Positions 88 to 21,500 of a DNA stretch of 22,124 bases are shown here, piece after piece. Under the pieces are notes generated by a model. The model was not told the DNA's origin. It made no database searches and was given only the letters and a program-made list of their open reading frames with translations. The DNA lies in the IMG/VR virus record IMGVR_UViG_2698536657_000008, positions 1 to 22,124 of that record; one strand, written 5' to 3'. The translations under genes were made by a program, and so were the position numbers. How positions within the stretch are numbered: the first letter of the stretch is position 1; every line of letters begins with the position of its first letter. The stretch comes from a virus. Its lineage: Duplodnaviria; Heunggongvirae; Uroviricota; Caudoviricetes.

Positions 88-402
88 TTATCTGTTACCT
101 GATAATTGTCTGAACAGGCGATCTTTTTGTGATTTGGCGTAATGATTATCCCATTCGCAATCAAGGTAACTTAATTCTTCATTTAACCAGTCATCTATAT
201 TGTCTTTCAGGCGAAGGAGCAAGGTTGGCGTTAATGCTCCGGATATAATACTGAGAGTTGCAGTAGTGAGAGCTCCATACGGTTCAGCCTGAATGGCCTT
301 TACTGCTTTGTGTTCTTGCGGGAGGAGTAAGAGGCATTCCGATTTTACCCGCTCATTTATGGCTTGCAGGCATAAATCATAATTATGTTGATGGTTATGC
401 AT
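88..402 (-). CDS. Hypothetical protein (104 aa) on the opposite strand, immediately upstream of the endolysin
   Basis: Minus-strand ORF. ATG at 402-400 is preceded on the minus strand by GAGGA with a 6-nt spacer. The track's 150-aa version starts at a TTG at 540 and would overlap the endolysin start, so the shorter form is preferred. No family recognised. Flanking DNA looks AT-richer than the structural genes. Confidence 0.4.
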   Translation of the reverse strand: MHNHQHNYDLCLQAINERVKSECLLLLPQEHKAVKAIQAEPYGALTTATLSIISGALTPTLLLRLKDNIDDWLNEELSYLDCEWDNHYAKSQKDRLFRQLSGNR

Positions 403-530
403 GGTTAATCCTCGACTGGAATTGTCAGATATATTTTCAGCCAGCAGATAAAACGCCAGTGCCCACCACTGGCGGGCTGAAGACTTAACATATCCAGGGA
501 TTCGGAACCGATAAATCCTGATAAATATCC

Positions 531-1064
531 ATGAACGCAAAAATCAGATACGGCCTGTCGGCTGCCGTTCTGGCGCTGATTGCCGCAGGGGCGCCTGCGC
601 CTGATATTCTCGACCAGTTTCTTGACGAAAAAGAAGGCAACCACACCACAGCATACCGTGATGGTGCGGGTATCTGGACCATCTGCCGAGGTGCCATCAT
701 GGTGGATGGTAAGCCTGTGATTCCTGGCATGAAGCTGTCGAAGGAAAAATGCGACTGGGTTAACGCTATCGAACGGGATAAGGCGCTGGCGTGGGTGGAG
801 AAAAACATCAGAGTGCCACTGACCGAACCCCAGAAAGCGGGGATCGCGTCATTCTGTCCGTACAACATTGGTCCCGGTAAGTGTTTCCCGTCGACGTTTT
901 ACAGACGAATTAATGCTGGTGATCGCAGGGGAGCATGCGAGGCGATTCGCTGGTGGATTAAGGACGGTGGCAGAGACTGCCGTATTCGTTCAAACAACTG
1001 TTACGGTCAGGTATCCCGTCGTGACCAGGAGAGCGCGCTGGCGTGCTGGGGTATCGACAGATAA
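531..1064 (+). CDS. SAR endolysin (T4-lysozyme-fold, GH24 muramidase with N-terminal signal-anchor-release segment)
   Basis: 177 aa. N-terminal weakly hydrophobic Gly/Ala-rich stretch GLSAAVLALIAAGAPAP, followed by Glu/Asp/Thr in the spacing of the catalytic triad of T4-type lysozymes (EKEGNHTTAYRDGAGIWTICRG). Resembles phage 21 R / P1 Lyz-type endolysins from memory. Position directly upstream of Rz/Rz1. Confidence 0.85.
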   Translation: MNAKIRYGLSAAVLALIAAGAPAPDILDQFLDEKEGNHTTAYRDGAGIWTICRGAIMVDGKPVIPGMKLSKEKCDWVNAIERDKALAWVEKNIRVPLTEPQKAGIASFCPYNIGPGKCFPSTFYRRINAGDRRGACEAIRWWIKDGGRDCRIRSNNCYGQVSRRDQESALACWGIDR

Positions 1065-1155
1065 GCAGAATATTTTGCTGAAAAATGACGTTGACCAACG
1101 CGGACGGATAACACGAAATCCTGCGAACTGGCAAAACCTAAGTGAATAAAAGTAA

Positions 1156-1192
1156 AAACCCCGTTTGTTGGCAGCAAGCGGGGTTTTGTGTT
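1156..1192 (+). terminator. Rho-independent terminator-like hairpin downstream of the endolysin
   Basis: Stem AAACCCCGTTTG (1156-1167) pairs with CAAGCGGGGTTT (1175-1186) with one G-U wobble, 7-nt loop, followed by TTTGTGTTTCT. Confidence 0.5.
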
Positions 1193-1284
1193 TCTGACCT
1201 TGGATAAGGCAAGGGAGAAATTATGGTGAGGGAGGTGCTTTCCCTGTGAGGAAGTATAAAAGATTCTTTCTGAGGTTGTCCATT

Positions 1285-1398
1285 ATGAAAGGCATTGAAG
1301 TGGAGACGCCAGCCAGTCTGGATTTAACAAGAGCGGCAGCTTTTGCCATTCGTATTATAGCCATTGCTGTTCTGATCTGGGCAATCCGTTGGTGGTGA
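1285..1398 (+). CDS. Candidate 37-aa single-pass membrane peptide ([37 protein letters not shown])
   Basis: ATG at 1285 with GAGG 9 nt upstream; stop TGA at 1396-1398, 1 nt before the Rz start codon. One ~18-residue hydrophobic stretch. Below the ORF-track size cutoff; translated by hand. Confidence 0.25.
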
Positions 1399-1399
1399 A

Positions 1400-1867
1400 A
1401 TGAACCGCGTTCTGTGTGTGGTCATCATTGCTCTGCTGGTGGCCTGTGGTGCGCTTAGTCTGGGGCTGAATCATTACCGCGATAACGCCATCACTTACAA
1501 AGCGCAGCGCGATAAAAAAGCCAGAGAGCTGGAGCTGGCAAACGCAACCATTACTGATATGCAGGTGCGTCAGCGTGATGTTGCTGCGCTCGATGCAAAA
1601 TACTCGAGGGAATTAGCCGATGCGAGAGCTGAAAATGAAACTCTTCGCGCTGACGTTGCCGCTGGTCGTAAGCGCCTGCGTATCAACGCCACCTGTCCAG
1701 GTCCCGTGCGTGAAGCCACCGGCACCGCCCGCGTGGATAATGCAACCGGCCCCCAACTGGCAGACACCGTTACACGGGATTATTTCACCCTCAGAGAGCG
1801 GCTGATGACGATGCAGAAGCAACTGGAAGGGGCGCAGGAATATATCCGTACTCAGTGCATTAAGTAG
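1400..1867 (+). CDS. Rz: Rz i-spanin (inner-membrane spanin subunit)
   Basis: 155 aa. N-terminal transmembrane segment then a coiled-coil-like periplasmic domain. Strong similarity to lambda Rz as recalled ([18 protein letters not shown]...[18 protein letters not shown]). Confidence 0.88.
1620..1805 (+). CDS. Rz1: Rz1 o-spanin (outer-membrane lipoprotein), embedded in the +1 frame of Rz
   Basis: 61-aa ORF entirely inside Rz. Lipobox LVVSA|C and proline-rich mature part ([30 protein letters not shown]), closely matching lambda Rz1 as recalled. Confidence 0.8.
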
Positions 1868-1890: not shown

Positions 1891-2115
1891 ATGAAGAAAT
1901 TACTGGTAACCGTAAAGCCTTTTCAGGGAACAATTCCGTTCCGTGTTTTGCAGCCTGGTCGTGTTCTTGTTGAAGGTACGTTCAGTGGTAAATGTACGCA
2001 ATCATACTCCCGGGTCTTTCGGGTGGATGCCTCGAATGAAGAGCTAACCGTGGAGTGTGCTGTGAATGCCGCTAAATGCCGCATGGTATCGGCTGCATTA
2101 CAGCCAGTGTGTTGA
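1891..2115 (+). CDS. Hypothetical small protein (74 aa) between Rz/Rz1 and cos
   Basis: ATG at 1891 preceded by GGAGG (1882-1886). Four Cys residues in the C-terminal half. No family recognised. Preferred over the overlapping minus-strand ORF 1923-2132, which has no obvious RBS. Confidence 0.4.
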   Translation: MKKLLVTVKPFQGTIPFRVLQPGRVLVEGTFSGKCTQSYSRVFRVDASNEELTVECAVNAAKCRMVSAALQPVC

Positions 2116-18091: not shown

Positions 18092-18102
18092 AAATAAAAA
18101 AA

Positions 18103-18128
18103 TCCCGCAGTGTTCGGAGGCTGCGGGA
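18103..18128 (-). terminator. Minus-strand rho-independent terminator-like hairpin at the left edge of the I-J insert
   Basis: TCCCGCAG (18103-18110) pairs with CTGCGGGA (18121-18128) around a 10-nt loop. It is preceded on the + strand by AAAATAAAAAAA (18091-18102), which is a T-run following the hairpin when read on the minus strand. Confidence 0.45.
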
Positions 18129-18151
18129 GATAACAATGAAGACTAACGTTC

Positions 18152-18249
18152 AAGGAGTTTTGTTTTTATTGACCCGAAAAAACTGTAATGCCCCGGAATG
18201 ATATCTGCCACGGGGATGTACAGAAAATGTGAAGAATTTCAGAAATTTT
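18152..18249 (+). repeat. I-J intergenic direct repeat, copy 1
   Basis: Contains AAGGAGTT (18152-18159), TTTTATTGACC (18164-18174) and the 25-mer AAATGTGAAGAATTTCAGAAATTTT (18225-18249), all shared in the same order with copy 2. The 25-mer contains the 13-bp palindrome AATTTC-A-GAAATT. Confidence 0.65.
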
Positions 18250-18323
18250 CTGTTGCGGGGCTGAAGTAAAAAACGCTCCCGCAATACACCTGGATATTAA
18301 CGGGAGGAACGAATAGTCACCTT

Positions 18324-18428
18324 AAGGAGTTGCGATTAATTGCTTTTATTGACCGCAGGTAATCTACCCATCCGGCAAGGTTTCCTCCACGGGAATTTGC
18401 CGGAAATGTGAAGAATTTCAGAAATTTT
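18324..18428 (+). repeat. I-J intergenic direct repeat, copy 2
   Basis: AAGGAGTT (18324-18331), TTTTATTGACC (18344-18354) and an identical 25-mer (18404-18428), 179 bp downstream of copy 1. Confidence 0.65.
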
Positions 18429-18441
18429 ATTCCGTCATGAC

Positions 18442-18472
18442 ACAGGCACCTCCGGGGTGCCTGTCGTTTTTT
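18442..18472 (+). terminator. Plus-strand rho-independent terminator at the right edge of the I-J insert
   Basis: ACAGGCACC (18442-18450), loop TCCGG, GGTGCCTGT (18456-18464), then CGTTTTTT (18465-18472): a 9-bp GC-rich stem plus T-tract. Confidence 0.55.
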
Positions 18473-18515
18473 GGGCATAAACAGATTCAGACATCAGACA
18501 GGAGAGGGGGACAGA

Positions 18516-21500
18516 GTGGGTAAAGGGGGCGGCAAGGGGCACACACCACGTGAGGCGAAGGACAATCTCAAATCCACGCAGATGATGAGCGTGATTGATG
18601 CCATTGGTGAGGGGCCGGTGGAAGGTCCGGTTAACGGCCTGCAGAGTATTCTGGTGAACAAAACCCCGCTGACGGACACGGACGGTAATCCCGTGATACA
18701 CGGTGTGACCGCCGTCTGGCGTGCCGGGGAGCAGGAGCAGACGCCGCCGGAAGGTTTTGAGTCCTCCGGGGCTGAAACCGCACTGGGCGTGGAGGTGACG
18801 AAGGCAAAGCCGGTGACGCGCACCATCACGTCAGCGAACATTGACCGTCTGCGGGTCACCTTCGGGGTGCAGTCACTGGTGGAGACCACCTCAAAGGGTG
18901 ACCGTAATCCCTCTTCTGTCCGCCTGCTGATTCAGCTTGAGCGTAACGGGCACTGGGTGACGGAGAAGGATATCACCATTAACGGCAAGACCACCTCGCA
19001 GTACCTGACGTCTGTGATTCTGAATAATCTCCCTGAGCGCCCCTTTAACATCCGGATGGTCAGGGAGACGGCGGACAGCACCACGGACCAGCTGCAGAAC
19101 AGAACGCTGTGGTCGTCATACACCGAAATCATCGATGTGAAACAGTGCTACCCGAACACGGCGATTGTGGGGCTGCAGGTGGATGCGGAGCAGTTTGGTG
19201 GCCAGCAGCTGACGGTGAACTACCATATCCGTGGTCGCATCATTCAGGTGCCGTCAAACTATGACCCGGAAAAACGCACCTACAGCGGTATCTGGGACGG
19301 GAGTCTGAAACCGGCATACAGCAATAACCCGGCCTGGTGCCTGTGGGACATGCTGACCCACCCGCGCTACGGGATGGGAAAACGCCTGGGGGCCGCGGAC
19401 GTGGACAAGTGGGCACTGTATGCCATCGGGCAGTACTGTGACCAGACGGTCCCGGATGGTTTCGGGGGAACAGAGCCGCGGATGACTTTCAATGCGTACC
19501 TGTCACAGCAGCGTAAGGTCTGGGATGTCCTGGGGGATTTCTGCTCGGCGATGCGCTGTATGCCGGTATGGAACGGTCAGACGCTGACGTTCGTTCAGGA
19601 CCGTCCGTCGGATGTGGTGTGGCCGTACACGAACAGCGATGTGGTGGTGGATGATAACGGCGTGGGGTTCCGCTACAGCTTCAGTGCCCTGAAGGACCGG
19701 CACACGGCGGTGGAGGTGAATTACACCGACCCGCAGAACGGCTGGCAGACTTCCACTGAACTGGTGGAAGACCCGGACGCCATCCTGCGCTACGGGCGCA
19801 ATCTGCTGAAGATGGATGCGTTTGGCTGTACCAGCCGCGGTCAGGCCCACCGTGCCGGACTGTGGGTGATAAAGACAGAACTGCTGGAAACGCAGACGGT
19901 GGATTTCACGCTCGGGTCACAGGGGCTGCGGCACACGCCCGGTGACATCATTGAAATCTGTGATAACGACTATGCCGGGACCCTGACCGGCGGACGTATC
20001 CTGTCCATCGATGCCGCCAGCCGTACCCTGACGCTGGACCGTGAGGTGACACTGCCGGAAACAGGGACATCGACGGTGAACCTGATTAACGGCAGCGGTA
20101 AGCCGGTGCGCGTGGACATCACTGCACACCCCGCCCCTGACCGGATACAGGTCAGCGTCCTGCCTGATGGCGTGGAGACATACGGTGTGTGGGGACTCTC
20201 CCTGCCGTCACTGCGTCGTCGCCTGTTCCGCTGTGTTTCCATCCGGGAAAACACGGACGGCACCTTTGCCATCACGGCAGTGCAGCACGTACCGGAAAAA
20301 GAAGCCATCGTGGATAACGGGGCCCGCTTTGAGCCGATGTCCGGCTCACTGAACAGCGTCATCCCGCCGGCAGTGCAGCACCTCACGGTGGAGGTGAGTG
20401 CCTCAGACGGCCAGTATCTGGCGCTGGCGAAATGGGACACGCCGCGGGTGGTGAAGGGCGTGCGCTTCAGTCTGCGCCTGACCAGTGGCAGTGGTGAAAA
20501 CAGCCGCCTGGTGACCAGCGCCATCACGGCGGACACGGAGCACCGTTTCAGTGGCCTGCCGCCCGGGGAATACACCCTGACGGTCAGGGCGATAAACAGC
20601 TACGGCCAGCAGGGCGAACCTGCCACCACCACGTTCCGGATTAACGCCCCGGCAGCACCGGCCAGCATTGAACTGACGCCGGGGTATTTTCAGATAACGG
20701 CGGTACCGCGCCTTGCGGTGTATGACCCGACGGTACAGTTTGAGTTCTGGTTTTCGGAAAAACGCATCACGGACATGGCACAGGTGGAAACGTCCGCCCG
20801 TTATCTGGGGACAGGCAGCCAGTGGAGCGTCTCCGGCCCGCACATTAAGCCGGGGACGGATTTCTGGTTTTATGTGCGCAGCGTCAACCTGGTGGGGAAA
20901 TCTGCTTTTGTGGAAGCCAGCGGACGGGCCAGCAATGATGCGGAAGGTTATCTGGAACTGTTCCGGGAAAAGATAGGAAAACTGCATCTGGCACAGGGGA
21001 TGTGGGAGCTGATTGATAACAGCCAGCTTGATGATGAGATGGCGGAGATGAAGACCACCATCACGGAAACCCGCAATGAAATCACGCAGACGGTCAACAA
21101 AACCCTGGAAGACCAGAGCGCCACCATACAGCAGATACAGCGGGTGCAGACAGACACAAATGATGACCTGGCTGCGCTGTACATGCTGAAGGTGCAGAAA
21201 ACAAAGGATGGCATTCCGTATGTTGCCGGTATTGGTGCGGGGATTGAGGATGCAGATGGCCAGCCCCTGAGCAATATTCTGCTGCAGGCGGACCGTATCG
21301 CGATGATTAACCCGGAGAACGGCAACACCACGCCGCTGTTTGTGGCGCAGGGGAATCAGTTGTTCATGAACGACGTGTTCCTGAAGCGACTGTTTGCGGT
21401 GAGCATCACCTCGTCCGGCAATCCCCCGACGTTCTCCCTGACGCCGGACGGCAGGCTGACGGCCCGTAATGCGGACATCAGCGGACATATCAGTGCGAAC

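What the first reader, a model, noticed from the sequence alone, without database searches (positions are those of the whole stretch)
1065..1399. 335 bp insert between endolysin and Rz with a terminator and a 37-aa membrane-peptide ORF
In lambda, R and Rz are essentially contiguous. Here they are separated by 335 bp containing a terminator-like hairpin with T-tract (1156-1192) and a short ORF (1285-1398) with a GAGG ribosome-binding site, encoding [37 protein letters not shown], which has one predicted transmembrane helix. Its stop codon sits 1 nt before the Rz ATG, suggesting translational coupling with the spanin genes. It could be a small lysis-accessory membrane peptide (antiholin-like or spanin-associated), or nothing.
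Basis: partly seen in the sequence, partly recalled or inferred. Interest (0 to 1): 0.45.

Follow-up and report, generated by a model that had tools for sequence, protein, structure and literature searches.

The report
Mobile small membrane-protein gene cassette
The 335-base stretch between this prophage's wall-cutting enzyme gene and its outer-membrane lysis gene is a transplanted mini-cassette: a transcription-stop hairpin followed by a real, selection-maintained gene for a roughly 50-residue membrane-anchored protein of unknown role, one of several interchangeable small membrane-protein genes that related E. coli prophages carry at this spot.

Summary
The gap (1065-1399), the hairpin with its T-tract (stem 1155-1187), the ORF ending at 1398 and the 1-nt spacing to the Rz ATG are all present.

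The ORF is a real gene. Variable sites by codon position are 8/0/25, and dN/dS is 0.03 against a diverged clade. It matches PHROG 4493 (function unknown) and is ECs_1094 in O157 Sakai.

Relatives show the gene most likely starts earlier, at GTG 1246 (50 aa).

The hairpin belongs to the gene. In every context examined, a covarying GC hairpin flanked by A- and T-tracts lies 25-60 nt upstream of the ORF, sometimes in tandem hairpin-ORF units.

In related prophages the R-Rz slot holds one to four different small single-helix ORFs, an antirepressor gene, or both. Distant homologues also lie among tail and capsid genes, so a spanin-specific role is not supported.

No function is known. My best guess (about 0.4) is a non-essential, late-expressed inner-membrane modulator of lysis, with long and short isoforms. 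Rivals are an exclusion moron and a type-I-toxin-like module with an antisense RNA.

The parts
531..1064 (+). R, SAR-type GH24 endolysin (left neighbour, context)
   Evidence: Pfam Phage_lysozyme 5.6e-23 and phrog_7 endolysin. The N-terminal hydrophobic stretch resembles R21 (read from the sequence, plus established knowledge of R21).
1065..1154 (+). Conserved linker after R. It begins with a small hairpin (GCAGAATATTTTGC) and ends in the A-rich tract AATAAAAGTAAAAA.
   Evidence: It is part of the ~156 nt found in 208 phage records and 2030 of 5426 E. coli genomes, followed there by different cargo. In clade 2 the same start motif lies downstream of the lipoprotein gene instead.
1155..1197 (.). 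Intrinsic-terminator hairpin (stem 1155-1187; AAAACCCCG...CGGGGTTTT) with the T-tract GTGTTTCTGA. Together with the upstream A-tract it is of the bidirectional type.
   Evidence: Terminator scan, 15 pairs. It folds as predicted on both strands. Across 14 cassette copies, 3 of 9 consensus pairs show changes on both sides, including A-U to G-C at the stem base.
1198..1222 (+). Spacer CTGACCTTGGATAAGGCAAGGGAGAAATT, with the Shine-Dalgarno AGGGAG at 1212-1217
   Evidence: The spacer and SD are conserved in distant cassettes (TTTCTGACCTTGAGCAAAGGAAG in L209 and L213).
1223..1249 (+). Eight-codon upstream ORF (MVREVLSL). Its stop TGA (1247-1249) overlaps GTG 1246, forming GTGA.
   Evidence: Read from the sequence. 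Clade 2 has a 13-codon uORF from the same SD that ends 9 nt after the equivalent start. In family B the same SD serves an ATG that starts the long form directly. That it couples translation is inferred.
1246..1398 (+). Long form of the gene, 50 aa, GTG start (GGAGG at 1231-1235): [50 protein letters not shown]
   Evidence: phrog_4493 at 2.9e-24 over profile positions 1-54 of 56. The extension KYKRxxLRL is conserved at protein level in E. coli, Salmonella, Lelliottia and metagenomic phages despite DNA divergence. GTG is replaced by ATG in L004 and L059. 97 of 100 copies are intact.
1285..1398 (+). Short form, 37 aa, from the internal ATG (GAGG at 1272-1275).
   Evidence: Annotated as WP_000675930.1 and ECs_1094. 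The internal Met, preceded by xTG-AGG (the rare Arg codon that forms GAGG), is kept in 10 of 11 divergent members. Codon-position pattern 8/0/25 and dN/dS 0.03.
1253..1282 (-). Promoter-like site TGGACA-18-TATACT on the opposite strand. It is a candidate start of a ~100-nt antisense RNA that would end at the hairpin (about 1246 down to 1146).
   Evidence: It is the only sigma-70-like site in 400-2500, matching 10 of 12. It is kept in E. coli clades 1 and 2, family B and Lelliottia. In distant members only a -10-like hexamer remains. The predicted RNA folds with z = -3.75. Its expression is untested.
1387..1402 (+). Junction CGT TGG TGG TGA A ATG: the C-terminal RWW codons, the stop, one base, then the Rz start. 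GGTGGTGA resembles the SD GGAGGTGA.
   Evidence: The same junction follows unrelated small ORFs (family C in H-19B and CP-1639). It also precedes other downstream genes: a lipoprotein, a gpI-like gene and a SAR endolysin.
1400..1867 (+). Rz i-spanin, with Rz1 o-spanin embedded at 1620-1805 (right neighbour, context)
   Evidence: Pfam Phage_lysis 1.2e-48 and Rz1 1e-19.

Best explanation
The insert is a mobile accessory cassette lodged in the endolysin-spanin junction of a lambdoid, Stx-phage-like prophage.

The cassette has four parts:
1. A GC-rich intrinsic-terminator hairpin flanked by A- and T-tracts.
2. A short spacer with a strong ribosome-binding site.
3. A gene for a small tail-anchored inner-membrane protein (PHROG 4493/1115 family).
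4. A conserved RWW-stop junction that hands ribosomes on to the next gene, here Rz.

Shown:
- The gene is real and under purifying selection.
- The hairpin, spacer and ORF move together between phage genomes and between positions in them.
- The R-Rz slot is a hot spot where related prophages carry different small single-helix ORFs.

Inferred:
- No forward promoter is detectable, so the gene is transcribed only when late, Q-modified RNA polymerase reads through the hairpin.
- It is translated from two in-frame starts. GTG 1246 gives a 50-aa form with a strongly basic amphipathic N-terminus (N-flank charge +4) that should stay in the cytoplasm. ATG 1285 gives a 37-aa form with a slightly acidic N-tail (-1).

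The mechanism I commit to, at about 0.4: the protein is a non-essential modulator of the membrane events that end the lytic cycle, meaning lysis timing around holin triggering, SAR-endolysin release or spanin action. The two isoforms would act differently, by analogy with holin/antiholin dual starts.

My confidence in the identity part (real gene, cassette, hot spot) is about 0.85.
For: Coding:
- Codon-position pattern 8/0/25, and dN/dS 0.03 against 1.2 and 7 in the other frames.
- 97 of 100 copies are intact.
- Conservative I/V/L and A/V swaps in the helix.

Family:
- phrog_4493 at 2.9e-24, phrog_1115 at 1.2e-10.
- Homologues in E. coli, Salmonella and Citrobacter.
- The profile search of 1.84 billion representatives finds only 28 clusters, 20-87 aa, sharing MKNGLExDAP...AFAIR/K...RWW.

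Long form and dual start:
- The extension is conserved as protein with diverged DNA.
- GTG to ATG changes occur at 1246.
- The internal Met and its AGG-made GAGG are kept in 10 of 11 divergent members.

Structure:
- AF2 predicts helix 3-15, a loop, then helix 23-49 with pLDDT around 90.
- Hydropathy and charge calculations.

Cassette:
- The hairpin and spacer precede the ORF in clade 1, clade 2, Lelliottia and six metagenomic phages, in different gene neighbourhoods.
- The stem covaries.
- L214 has three 48-nt hairpin copies, each heading a small-ORF unit.

Hot spot:
- 26 gap classes of 295-1197 nt contain families A, A', B, C, D, E, F and Ant. The last stop lies 1-7 nt from Rz in nearly all classes.

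Lysis link:
- The gene sits between endolysin and Rz in cassettes with SAR GH24, GH24/holin_2_1 plus Ant, and GH19/holin_3_1. It sits after an M15 endolysin in clade 2.
- The L214 array ends in a holin-like ORF and a SAR endolysin.

No forward promoter: the scan of 400-2500 finds none.
Against: - No experiment or annotation ties any family member to lysis. Pfam, NCBIfam and PADLOC give nothing, and no paper names the protein.
- Homologues lie outside lysis cassettes: the tail-fibre region, between K- and I-like tail genes, after capsid genes, at a prophage end, and next to hicAB.
- Lambda, phage 21 and K-12 Qin-type cassettes work without it. rrrQ and rzpQ overlap in K-12.
- Frameshifted alleles exist, so it is dispensable.
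- The protein has one helix and follows the endolysin, unlike known holins and antiholins.
- Dual-start use, read-through of the hairpin and coupling into Rz are all inferred from sequence only.
Confidence: 0.4

Rival explanations
1. It is a moron-type accessory gene whose membrane protein serves exclusion or defence: blocking DNA entry of other phages, or otherwise changing the envelope for the benefit of the lysogen or infected cell. Its position in the lysis cassette is incidental, because that junction is simply a tolerated insertion hot spot.
For: - The slot is hypervariable and also takes an antirepressor gene.
- Homologues lie in classic moron sites: the tail-fibre region, a prophage end next to host genes, and beside hicAB.
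- The family is small, patchy and frequently exchanged.
- Small single-pass membrane proteins are a common form of prophage exclusion factor (established knowledge, for example HK97 gp15; review PMC3594210 listed).
Against: - No forward promoter-like site lies between the hairpin and the ORF, and a terminator sits directly upstream. Expression in a lysogen, where exclusion pays, is therefore not expected.
- There is no PADLOC match.
- Every copy is co-oriented with late genes, and most are tightly joined to the next late gene.
Confidence: 0.2
2. It is a type-I-toxin-like, or sieB/esc/sas-like, module. A small hydrophobic protein has its long-form translation start covered by a ~100-nt antisense RNA. 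That RNA is fired from the promoter-like site at 1282-1253 on the opposite strand and stopped by the bidirectional hairpin. The RNA would shift output from the long to the short isoform, or silence the gene.
For: - The only sigma-70-like site in the region is on the minus strand, between the two starts, matching 10 of 12.
- It is retained in E. coli clades 1 and 2, family B and Lelliottia (9-10 of 12), and a -10-like hexamer recurs at the same place in all members.
- The A-tract upstream of the hairpin is conserved in every cassette, giving a U-tract for a minus-strand RNA.
- The predicted RNA folds well, z = -3.75.
- The block 1250-1293 carries far fewer synonymous changes (pS 0.25) than the rest of the gene (pS 0.70).
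- P22 sieB/esc/sas is a precedent for two in-frame products switched by an antisense RNA (Ranade and Poteete 1993, cited in PMC7067206).
Against: - The -35 element is poor in distant members, and the -10-like hexamer sits on Lys/Tyr codons that are AT-rich anyway.
- The toxin gene has no promoter or long structured leader of its own, unlike hok, ldr, tisB and zor.
- There is no Rfam match.
- Hfq-CRAC in O157 Sakai lists no peak in the Sp4 gap that holds ECs_1094.
- The low pS of the block is also explained by the internal ribosome-binding site.
Confidence: 0.1
3. The ORF is a by-product. The stretch would exist only as a terminator plus a translated spacer that restores ribosome delivery to Rz, and the peptide itself would have no function.
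For: - The RWW-stop junction, with its SD-like GGTGGTGA, is shared by unrelated ORFs and different downstream genes. This suggests constraint from coupling rather than from the peptide.
- Families C and D show no clear codon-position bias in the close E. coli sample.
Against: - dN/dS of 0.03 with saturated synonymous sites, and a conserved motif and helix across genera, show selection on the amino-acid sequence of this family.
- 97% of copies are intact.
Confidence: 0.03

Closest known systems
PHROG families 4493, 1115 and 3246 (phage proteins of unknown function); RefSeq WP_000675930.1; ECs_1094 of E. coli O157:H7 Sakai prophage Sp4
   Same: Direct sequence membership. The 50-aa form covers phrog_4493 positions 1-54 of 56 at E = 2.9e-24. 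The Sakai copy differs at 2 residues.
   Different: Nothing differs in kind. These entries carry no function. RefSeq annotates only the 37-aa short form.
Holin/antiholin dual-start genes (lambda S105/S107, phage 21 S68/S71)
   Same: A small membrane protein encoded in a lysis cassette. Two in-frame starts, each with its own ribosome-binding site. The longer product carries extra N-terminal positive charge.
   Different: It has one helix rather than two or three. The extension is 13 residues (+5) rather than 2-3 residues. The gene lies after the endolysin, not before. It has no sequence match to any Pfam holin family. Relatives occur outside lysis cassettes. Hole formation is untested.
Morons of lambdoid phages (for example lambda bor and lom, HK97 gp15)
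   Same: An extra gene inserted between genes that abut in relatives. It is exchanged horizontally and sits at the lysis-cassette end and in tail-fibre regions. The product is a small envelope protein.
   Different: A classic moron has its own promoter upstream and a terminator downstream, and is expressed in the lysogen. Here the terminator is upstream, no promoter is detectable, and the gene is fused into late-operon translation.
Type I toxin-antitoxin loci (hok/sok, ldr/rdl, tisB/istR, zorO/orzO) and P22 sieB/esc/sas
   Same: A small hydrophobic peptide, a leader ORF overlapping the start (as with mok/hok), a candidate antisense promoter near the start, a bidirectional terminator, and two in-frame products (as with sieB/esc).
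   Different: It has no toxin promoter or long leader, no Rfam hit and no detected Hfq-bound RNA. The helix is C-terminal rather than N-terminal as in Hok. SieB is about four times larger and is an early-region gene (from memory).
Spanins (Rz/Rz1, T1 gp11)
   Same: A membrane-anchored product encoded next to, and possibly translationally coupled with, Rz/Rz1.
   Different: It has no N-terminal anchor with a periplasmic coiled-coil domain, and no lipobox. Only about 3 residues follow the helix, so it cannot span the periplasm.

Membership tests
PHROG 4493/1115 small phage protein family | Significant match to the family profile over its full length | tested here: met
   phrog_4493 at 2.9e-24 over positions 1-54 of 56; phrog_1115 at 1.2e-10. 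Reciprocal homologues were found.
Holin / antiholin | Sequence membership in a known holin family | tested here: not met
   No Pfam family at E <= 1 for the 37- or 50-aa form. The PHROG hits are all of unknown function.
Holin / antiholin | Dual-start motif giving a longer, more positively charged isoform | tested here: inconclusive
   Two in-frame starts with SD motifs are conserved across the family, and the long form carries +5 in the 13-residue extension (N-flank +4 versus -1 for the short form). Use of both starts in vivo is not testable here.
Holin / antiholin | Lethal membrane permeabilisation that releases or activates the endolysin | not testable with these tools
   Needs expression and lysis assays.
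Spanin (i-, o- or u-spanin) | N-terminal membrane anchor plus a periplasmic domain (i-spanin), or a lipobox signal (o- and u-spanin) | tested here: not met
   The helix is at residues 30-48 of 50, with only WW beyond it. There is no lipobox, and no match to Phage_lysis or Rz1.
Type I toxin-antitoxin | Small hydrophobic membrane peptide of about 60 aa or less | tested here: met
   37/50 aa. The best 19-residue hydropathy window scores 2.13. AF2 predicts helix 23-49.
Type I toxin-antitoxin | Toxin gene with its own promoter and a structured leader | tested here: not met
   No forward promoter-like site in 400-2500. Only 25-60 nt separate the terminator and the start in all members.
Type I toxin-antitoxin | Antisense or divergent small RNA overlapping the toxin start | tested here: inconclusive
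   The minus-strand site TGGACA-18-TATACT is conserved in near relatives and weak in distant ones. There is no Rfam hit. There is no Hfq-CRAC peak at the Sakai copy.
Moron (Juhala/Hendrix sense) | Extra DNA between genes that are adjacent in related phages | tested here: met
   rrrQ and rzpQ overlap in K-12 Qin. Gap contents differ among relatives. Other copies lie between gpK- and gpI-like genes, which normally abut.
Moron (Juhala/Hendrix sense) | Autonomous transcription unit: promoter upstream, terminator downstream | tested here: not met
   The terminator is upstream and no promoter-like site is found.
Known prophage sRNAs of pathogenic E. coli (AgvB, AsxR, Esr41, Pas, EcOnc set) | Match to the Rfam model or to the mapped position | tested here: not met
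   No Rfam hit at gathering or at E <= 10 that is relevant. AgvB, AsxR and Pas lie upstream of the holin. EcOnc11/12 lie just after Rz, not in the gap.

The most novel reading that the evidence does not exclude
The hairpin-plus-ORF units are a previously undescribed class of promoterless mini-cassettes. They are bounded by a terminator-type hairpin on the left and a conserved RWW-stop/SD junction on the right. They shuffle unrelated small single-helix membrane-protein genes into the late operons of diverse proteobacterial phages, sometimes as tandem arrays. Expression would be gated by antitermination and fine-tuned by two in-frame starts, possibly switched by a cassette-borne antisense RNA as in P22 sieB/esc/sas. 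In Stx phages such cassettes would tune the moment of lysis, and hence toxin release.
Probability: 0.2. Interest if true: 0.7.

Novelty: new variant of a known kind. Interest (0 to 1): 0.5.

Why it matters
About one in eight complete E. coli genomes carries this exact cassette, including O157:H7 Sakai. More than a third carry the same slot with other small membrane ORFs. All sit inside the lysis cassettes of Stx-type prophages, where lysis timing sets phage burst and Shiga-toxin release.

None of these proteins has been studied. RefSeq annotates this one with what is probably a truncated start.

If they modulate lysis, they are an unrecognised regulatory layer in a textbook system. If they do not, they are a compact example of how tiny membrane-protein genes spread between phage late operons together with a terminator. 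Either way, the gene, its two starts and the hairpin are directly testable in existing EHEC strains.

Tried and rejected
- **Rfam.** No hit at gathering threshold on the whole window, and nothing relevant at E <= 10 on 900-1500. The only weak hits (rimP leader, RefA9) are to the generic terminator hairpin.
- **Known EHEC prophage sRNAs.** I suspected AgvB, AsxR or Pas. The papers place them between the pR' moron and the holin, not here.
- **EcOnc11/12 of Tree et al. 2014.** They looked positionally promising, about 5 kb from AgvB-type sRNAs, but they map just downstream of Rz in Sakai Sp9 and Sp10.
- **Novel EHEC ORF X032 (117 nt, three copies).** An unrelated sequence.
- **Protein model libraries.** Pfam, NCBIfam and PADLOC give no hits for this protein or for the other slot ORFs.
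- **tblastn against the phage collection.** Only 9 records, because the helix is masked as low complexity.
- **The search for related loci.** The single genome-contig scan, run with the Lelliottia-type protein, returned one locus only.
- **Full-text searches.** Peptide strings and ECs1094 found nothing.
- **Small ORF as i-spanin partner of the clade-2 lipoprotein.** Rejected on topology: almost no residues lie beyond the helix.
- **Forward promoter in the spacer (TTGACC-like hexamers after the T-tract).** Rejected, because there is no consistent -10.
- **Coding signature for slot families C and D in the close E. coli sample.** Inconclusive: 2/2/4 and 24/22/22.
Full report
**1. What is there**

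The window is the late region of a lambdoid, Stx-phage-like prophage.
- R is at 531-1064. It is a GH24 lysozyme with an R21-like N-terminal hydrophobic stretch.
- Rz is at 1400-1867, with Rz1 embedded at 1620-1805.
- A cos/Nu1/terminase region and lambda-like head and tail genes follow.

R and Rz are separated by 335 nt. In K-12 Qin, which has the same type of endolysin, rrrQ and rzpQ overlap. The gap is therefore an insertion relative to simpler cassettes.

- A 15-pair hairpin at 1155-1187 followed by a T-rich tail.
- An ORF at 1285-1398 with GAGG 9 nt upstream.
- A stop at 1396-1398, one base before the Rz ATG.

**2. The ORF is a real gene**

I collected 80 viral contigs that encode a close relative and compared 29 distinct DNA versions.
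- In the 37 codons, variable sites fall 8/0/25 by codon position.
- Against a second clade that is 82% identical in DNA, pS = 0.70, pN = 0.06 and dN/dS = 0.03.
- The two other forward frames give dN/dS of 1.2 and 7.
- Amino-acid changes in the hydrophobic part are I/V/L and A/V/T/S swaps.
- Of 100 copies in the loci I hold, 97 are intact.

The gene is annotated as a hypothetical protein in RefSeq (WP_000675930.1). It is ECs_1094 in prophage Sp4 of O157:H7 Sakai. No paper in the library mentions it.

**3. Where the gene starts**

The frame is open from GTG 1246, which gives 50 aa. Four observations point to this start.
- The 50-aa form matches PHROG 4493 over the whole profile at 2.9e-24. The 37-aa form scores 1.1e-15.
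- A sister family (PhiR5_2-type, 60 aa, in E. coli and Salmonella) and more distant members from Lelliottia and metagenomic phages all carry the N-terminal segment M-x-x-Y-K/R-K/R-F/I-F/L-x-L/M-R-L-S/T. They usually start it with ATG, and their DNA has diverged. The extension is therefore translated.
- At position 1246, two variants in two clades have ATG instead of GTG.
- GGAGG lies 10 nt upstream of 1246.

- A Met at this position is kept throughout the family.
- It is preceded by xTG-AGG in 10 of 11 divergent members. AGG is the rare Arg codon that forms GAGG 6-9 nt upstream.
- The block 1250-1293 has far fewer synonymous changes (pS 0.25) than the rest of the gene (pS 0.70).

I read this as two in-frame starts. 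Use of both is inferred, not shown.

In this lineage an 8-codon upstream ORF (1223-1249) starts at the cassette's conserved SD (AGGGAG, 1212-1217). It ends in a GTGA overlap with the long-form start. Clade 2 has a 13-codon equivalent. In family B the same SD serves the long form directly.

**4. The protein**

- AlphaFold2 with the family alignment gives helix 3-15, a loose linker at 16-22, and a confident helix at 23-49.
- The best 19-residue hydropathy window is residues 30-48. Only WW follows it.
- The extension is amphipathic (hydrophobic moment 0.61) and carries +5.
- The N-flank of the long form is +4. That of the short form is -1.

By the positive-inside rule the long form should be tail-anchored with its N-terminus in the cytoplasm. 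The topology of the short form is open.

The profile search of 1.84 billion representatives finds only 28 clusters. The family is small and narrow. Pfam, NCBIfam and PADLOC have no model for it.

**5. The hairpin belongs to the gene**

The gap is composite. Its first ~156 nt, up to and including the hairpin and SD, occur in 208 phage records and in 2030 of 5426 complete E. coli genomes. The full 335 nt occur in 674 genomes.

More telling is that every family member I could examine has three features upstream of the ORF:
- a GC hairpin 25-60 nt upstream;
- an A-rich tract (AAAAGCAAAAG-like) before the hairpin, and a T-tract after it;
- often the spacer TTTCTGACCTTGAGCAAAGGAAG.

This holds in quite different neighbourhoods. 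Across 14 copies the stem covaries: 3 of 9 consensus pairs change on both sides, including A-U to G-C at the base where the A-tract pairs with the T-tract.

Two metagenomic contigs show tandem units.
- L214 has three copies of a 48-nt hairpin element (94% and 77% identical to the first). Each heads one or two small ORFs. The array runs from the major capsid gene to a holin-like ORF and a SAR endolysin.
- L211 carries two hairpin-ORF units.

Unrelated small ORFs share the 3' end CGC/CGT-TGG-TGG-stop. It is followed within 1-4 nt by the next gene's ATG, whether that gene is Rz, a lipoprotein, a gpI-like gene or an endolysin. GGTGGTGA resembles the SD GGAGGTGA. The RWW codons probably double as the downstream ribosome-binding site.

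The unit that moves is therefore hairpin, spacer, ORF and junction.

**6. The slot**

Among 119 loci holding the conserved start of the linker, the distance to Rz falls into 26 classes from 295 to 1197 nt. The slot holds one to four small single-helix ORFs from at least six families, and in the longer classes an antirepressor gene:
- this family (A);
- a shortened relative sharing its helix;
- the 60-aa sister family B;
- a 45-aa family C (phrog_6632; H-19B, CP-1639);
- a 43-aa family D (ECs_1966 in Sakai);
- two further families, E and F.

The last ORF ends 1-7 nt from the Rz start in nearly all classes. In three classes it overlaps the Rz start by 4 nt or ends well before it.

Family B shows a coding pattern (3/1/10). 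Families C and D are inconclusive in this close sample. Family C does have protein-level homologues next to this family in distant phages.

**7. Is it a lysis gene?**

For:
- In enterobacterial prophages the gene sits inside lysis cassettes of at least four kinds: SAR GH24 with a class II holin (this window); GH24 with holin_2_1 and Ant; GH19 with holin_3_1; and an M15 peptidase with two holins, where it precedes a 60-aa lipoprotein and no spanin is recognisable.
- It is co-oriented with late genes, and no forward promoter is detectable.
- It has a dual start with a basic extension, the hallmark of holin/antiholin pairs.

Against:
- Homologues lie after tail-fibre genes (L208, L211, P0100), between gpK- and gpI-like genes (L209, L210), after capsid genes (L213), at a prophage end (P0150) and beside hicAB (L207).
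- The gene is dispensable and sometimes frameshifted.
- It has one helix and follows the endolysin.

A late-expressed membrane protein can act at lysis wherever it is encoded, so these contexts weaken the lysis reading but do not exclude it. An exclusion role is harder to reconcile with the upstream terminator and the missing promoter. I therefore rank the options as follows:
- lysis-phase modulator, about 0.4;
- exclusion or defence moron, about 0.2;
- antisense-controlled, toxin-like module, about 0.1;
- the remainder unknown.

**8. The antisense idea**

The only sigma-70-like site in 400-2500 is on the minus strand: TGGACA-18-TATACT at 1282-1253. It lies between the two starts. A transcript from it would run about 100 nt to the hairpin's minus-strand U-tract. 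It would cover the SD and start of the upstream ORF and of the long form, but not the internal start. This is the logic of P22 sieB/esc/sas. The predicted RNA folds with z = -3.75.

The site is kept in near relatives at 9-10 of 12. In distant members only a -10-like hexamer remains, and it sits on AT-rich Lys/Tyr codons. Hfq-CRAC in Sakai lists no peak at the ECs_1094 gap. I treat this as an open minority reading.

**9. Comparison and novelty**

The gene is a member of uncharacterised PHROG families and is already annotated as hypothetical. Its existence is therefore not new.

To my knowledge, and within the library searched, four things are not described:
- the longer start and the conserved internal start;
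- the hairpin-ORF-junction cassette and its tandem arrays;
- the R-Rz slot as a hot spot for interchangeable small membrane ORFs in Stx-type prophages;
- the family's spread across unrelated late-operon positions.

It resembles a moron but is built the other way round: the terminator is upstream and it has no promoter. It resembles a holin dual start but fails holin membership. It fails the spanin and type I toxin tests on defined features.

I file it as a new variant of a known kind, the small accessory phage membrane-protein cassette, with moderate interest.

Noticed in passing
window 18092-18566, mainly minus strand: The gpI-like and gpJ-like genes, which abut in lambda, are separated by about 380 nt holding two ~100-nt direct repeat units. 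Window 18389-18566 (minus strand) is 92% identical to the I-J gap of Sakai Sp15, where Tree et al. 2014 mapped the Hfq-bound, ~85-nt, Hfq-dependent sRNA EcOnc22, with homologues EcOnc23/24 in Sp14 and Sp11. Rfam has no model that hits it.
   Followed up: partly
window 1106-1125 with 1179-1195: In the minimum-energy fold of 1065-1200, the linker segment AACACGAAAUCCUGC pairs over 15 bp with the 3' half of the terminator and its U-tract (GCGGGGUUUUGUGUU). This would be an antiterminator-like alternative to the hairpin (z = -3.1). The linker is nearly invariant among relatives, so covariation cannot test it. It is not part of the mobile cassette.
   Followed up: no
L062 2404-2831 (clade 2, IMG/VR contigs L059-L083): The same hairpin and small ORF sit in a different lysis cassette: Phage_holin_8, Phage_holin_3_7, an M15 peptidase endolysin and an unknown 116-aa ORF. 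There it is followed, across the same TGAnATG junction, by a 60-aa lipoprotein (lipobox LVGC, phrog_7528, function unknown). No Rz/Rz1-type spanin is recognisable in that cassette.
   Followed up: partly
L214 2423-3403: Three copies of a 48-nt terminator-type hairpin element (94% and 77% identical) each head small membrane ORFs. These are two members of this family, a holin-like 59-aa ORF and a family-C-like ORF ending VRWW. They lie between a major capsid gene and a SAR endolysin, an integron-like look for a phage late region.
   Followed up: partly
R-Rz slot in related loci (for example L087 2657-2985, L128, L094; Sakai ECs_1966 and ECs_5722): Other small single-helix ORF families occupy the same slot in varied combinations: a 43-aa MSDKLITLAK... 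family, a 45-aa VFDFSKLIREIRVMAEK... family, and 49- and 50-aa families. Some appear as chimeras that share the helix or the C-terminus of this family. In Stx2a phage Stx2_14040 the 45-aa ORF is interrupted.
   Followed up: partly
window 88-540, minus strand: A 150-aa ORF (phrog_1853, unknown function) lies on the opposite strand between the holin region and R, and overlaps the R start by 10 nt. RefSeq annotates a 104-aa version in the identical prophage. A terminator-like site on the minus strand lies at 474-454, inside this ORF.
   Followed up: no
window 1891-2115, plus strand: A 74-aa ORF (phrog_2571, unknown function) sits directly after Rz, where lambda carries bor on the opposite strand. 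In Sakai Sp9 and Sp10 the equivalent place holds a minus-strand 75-aa gene whose 3' end coincides with the abundant Hfq peaks EcOnc11/12.
   Followed up: no
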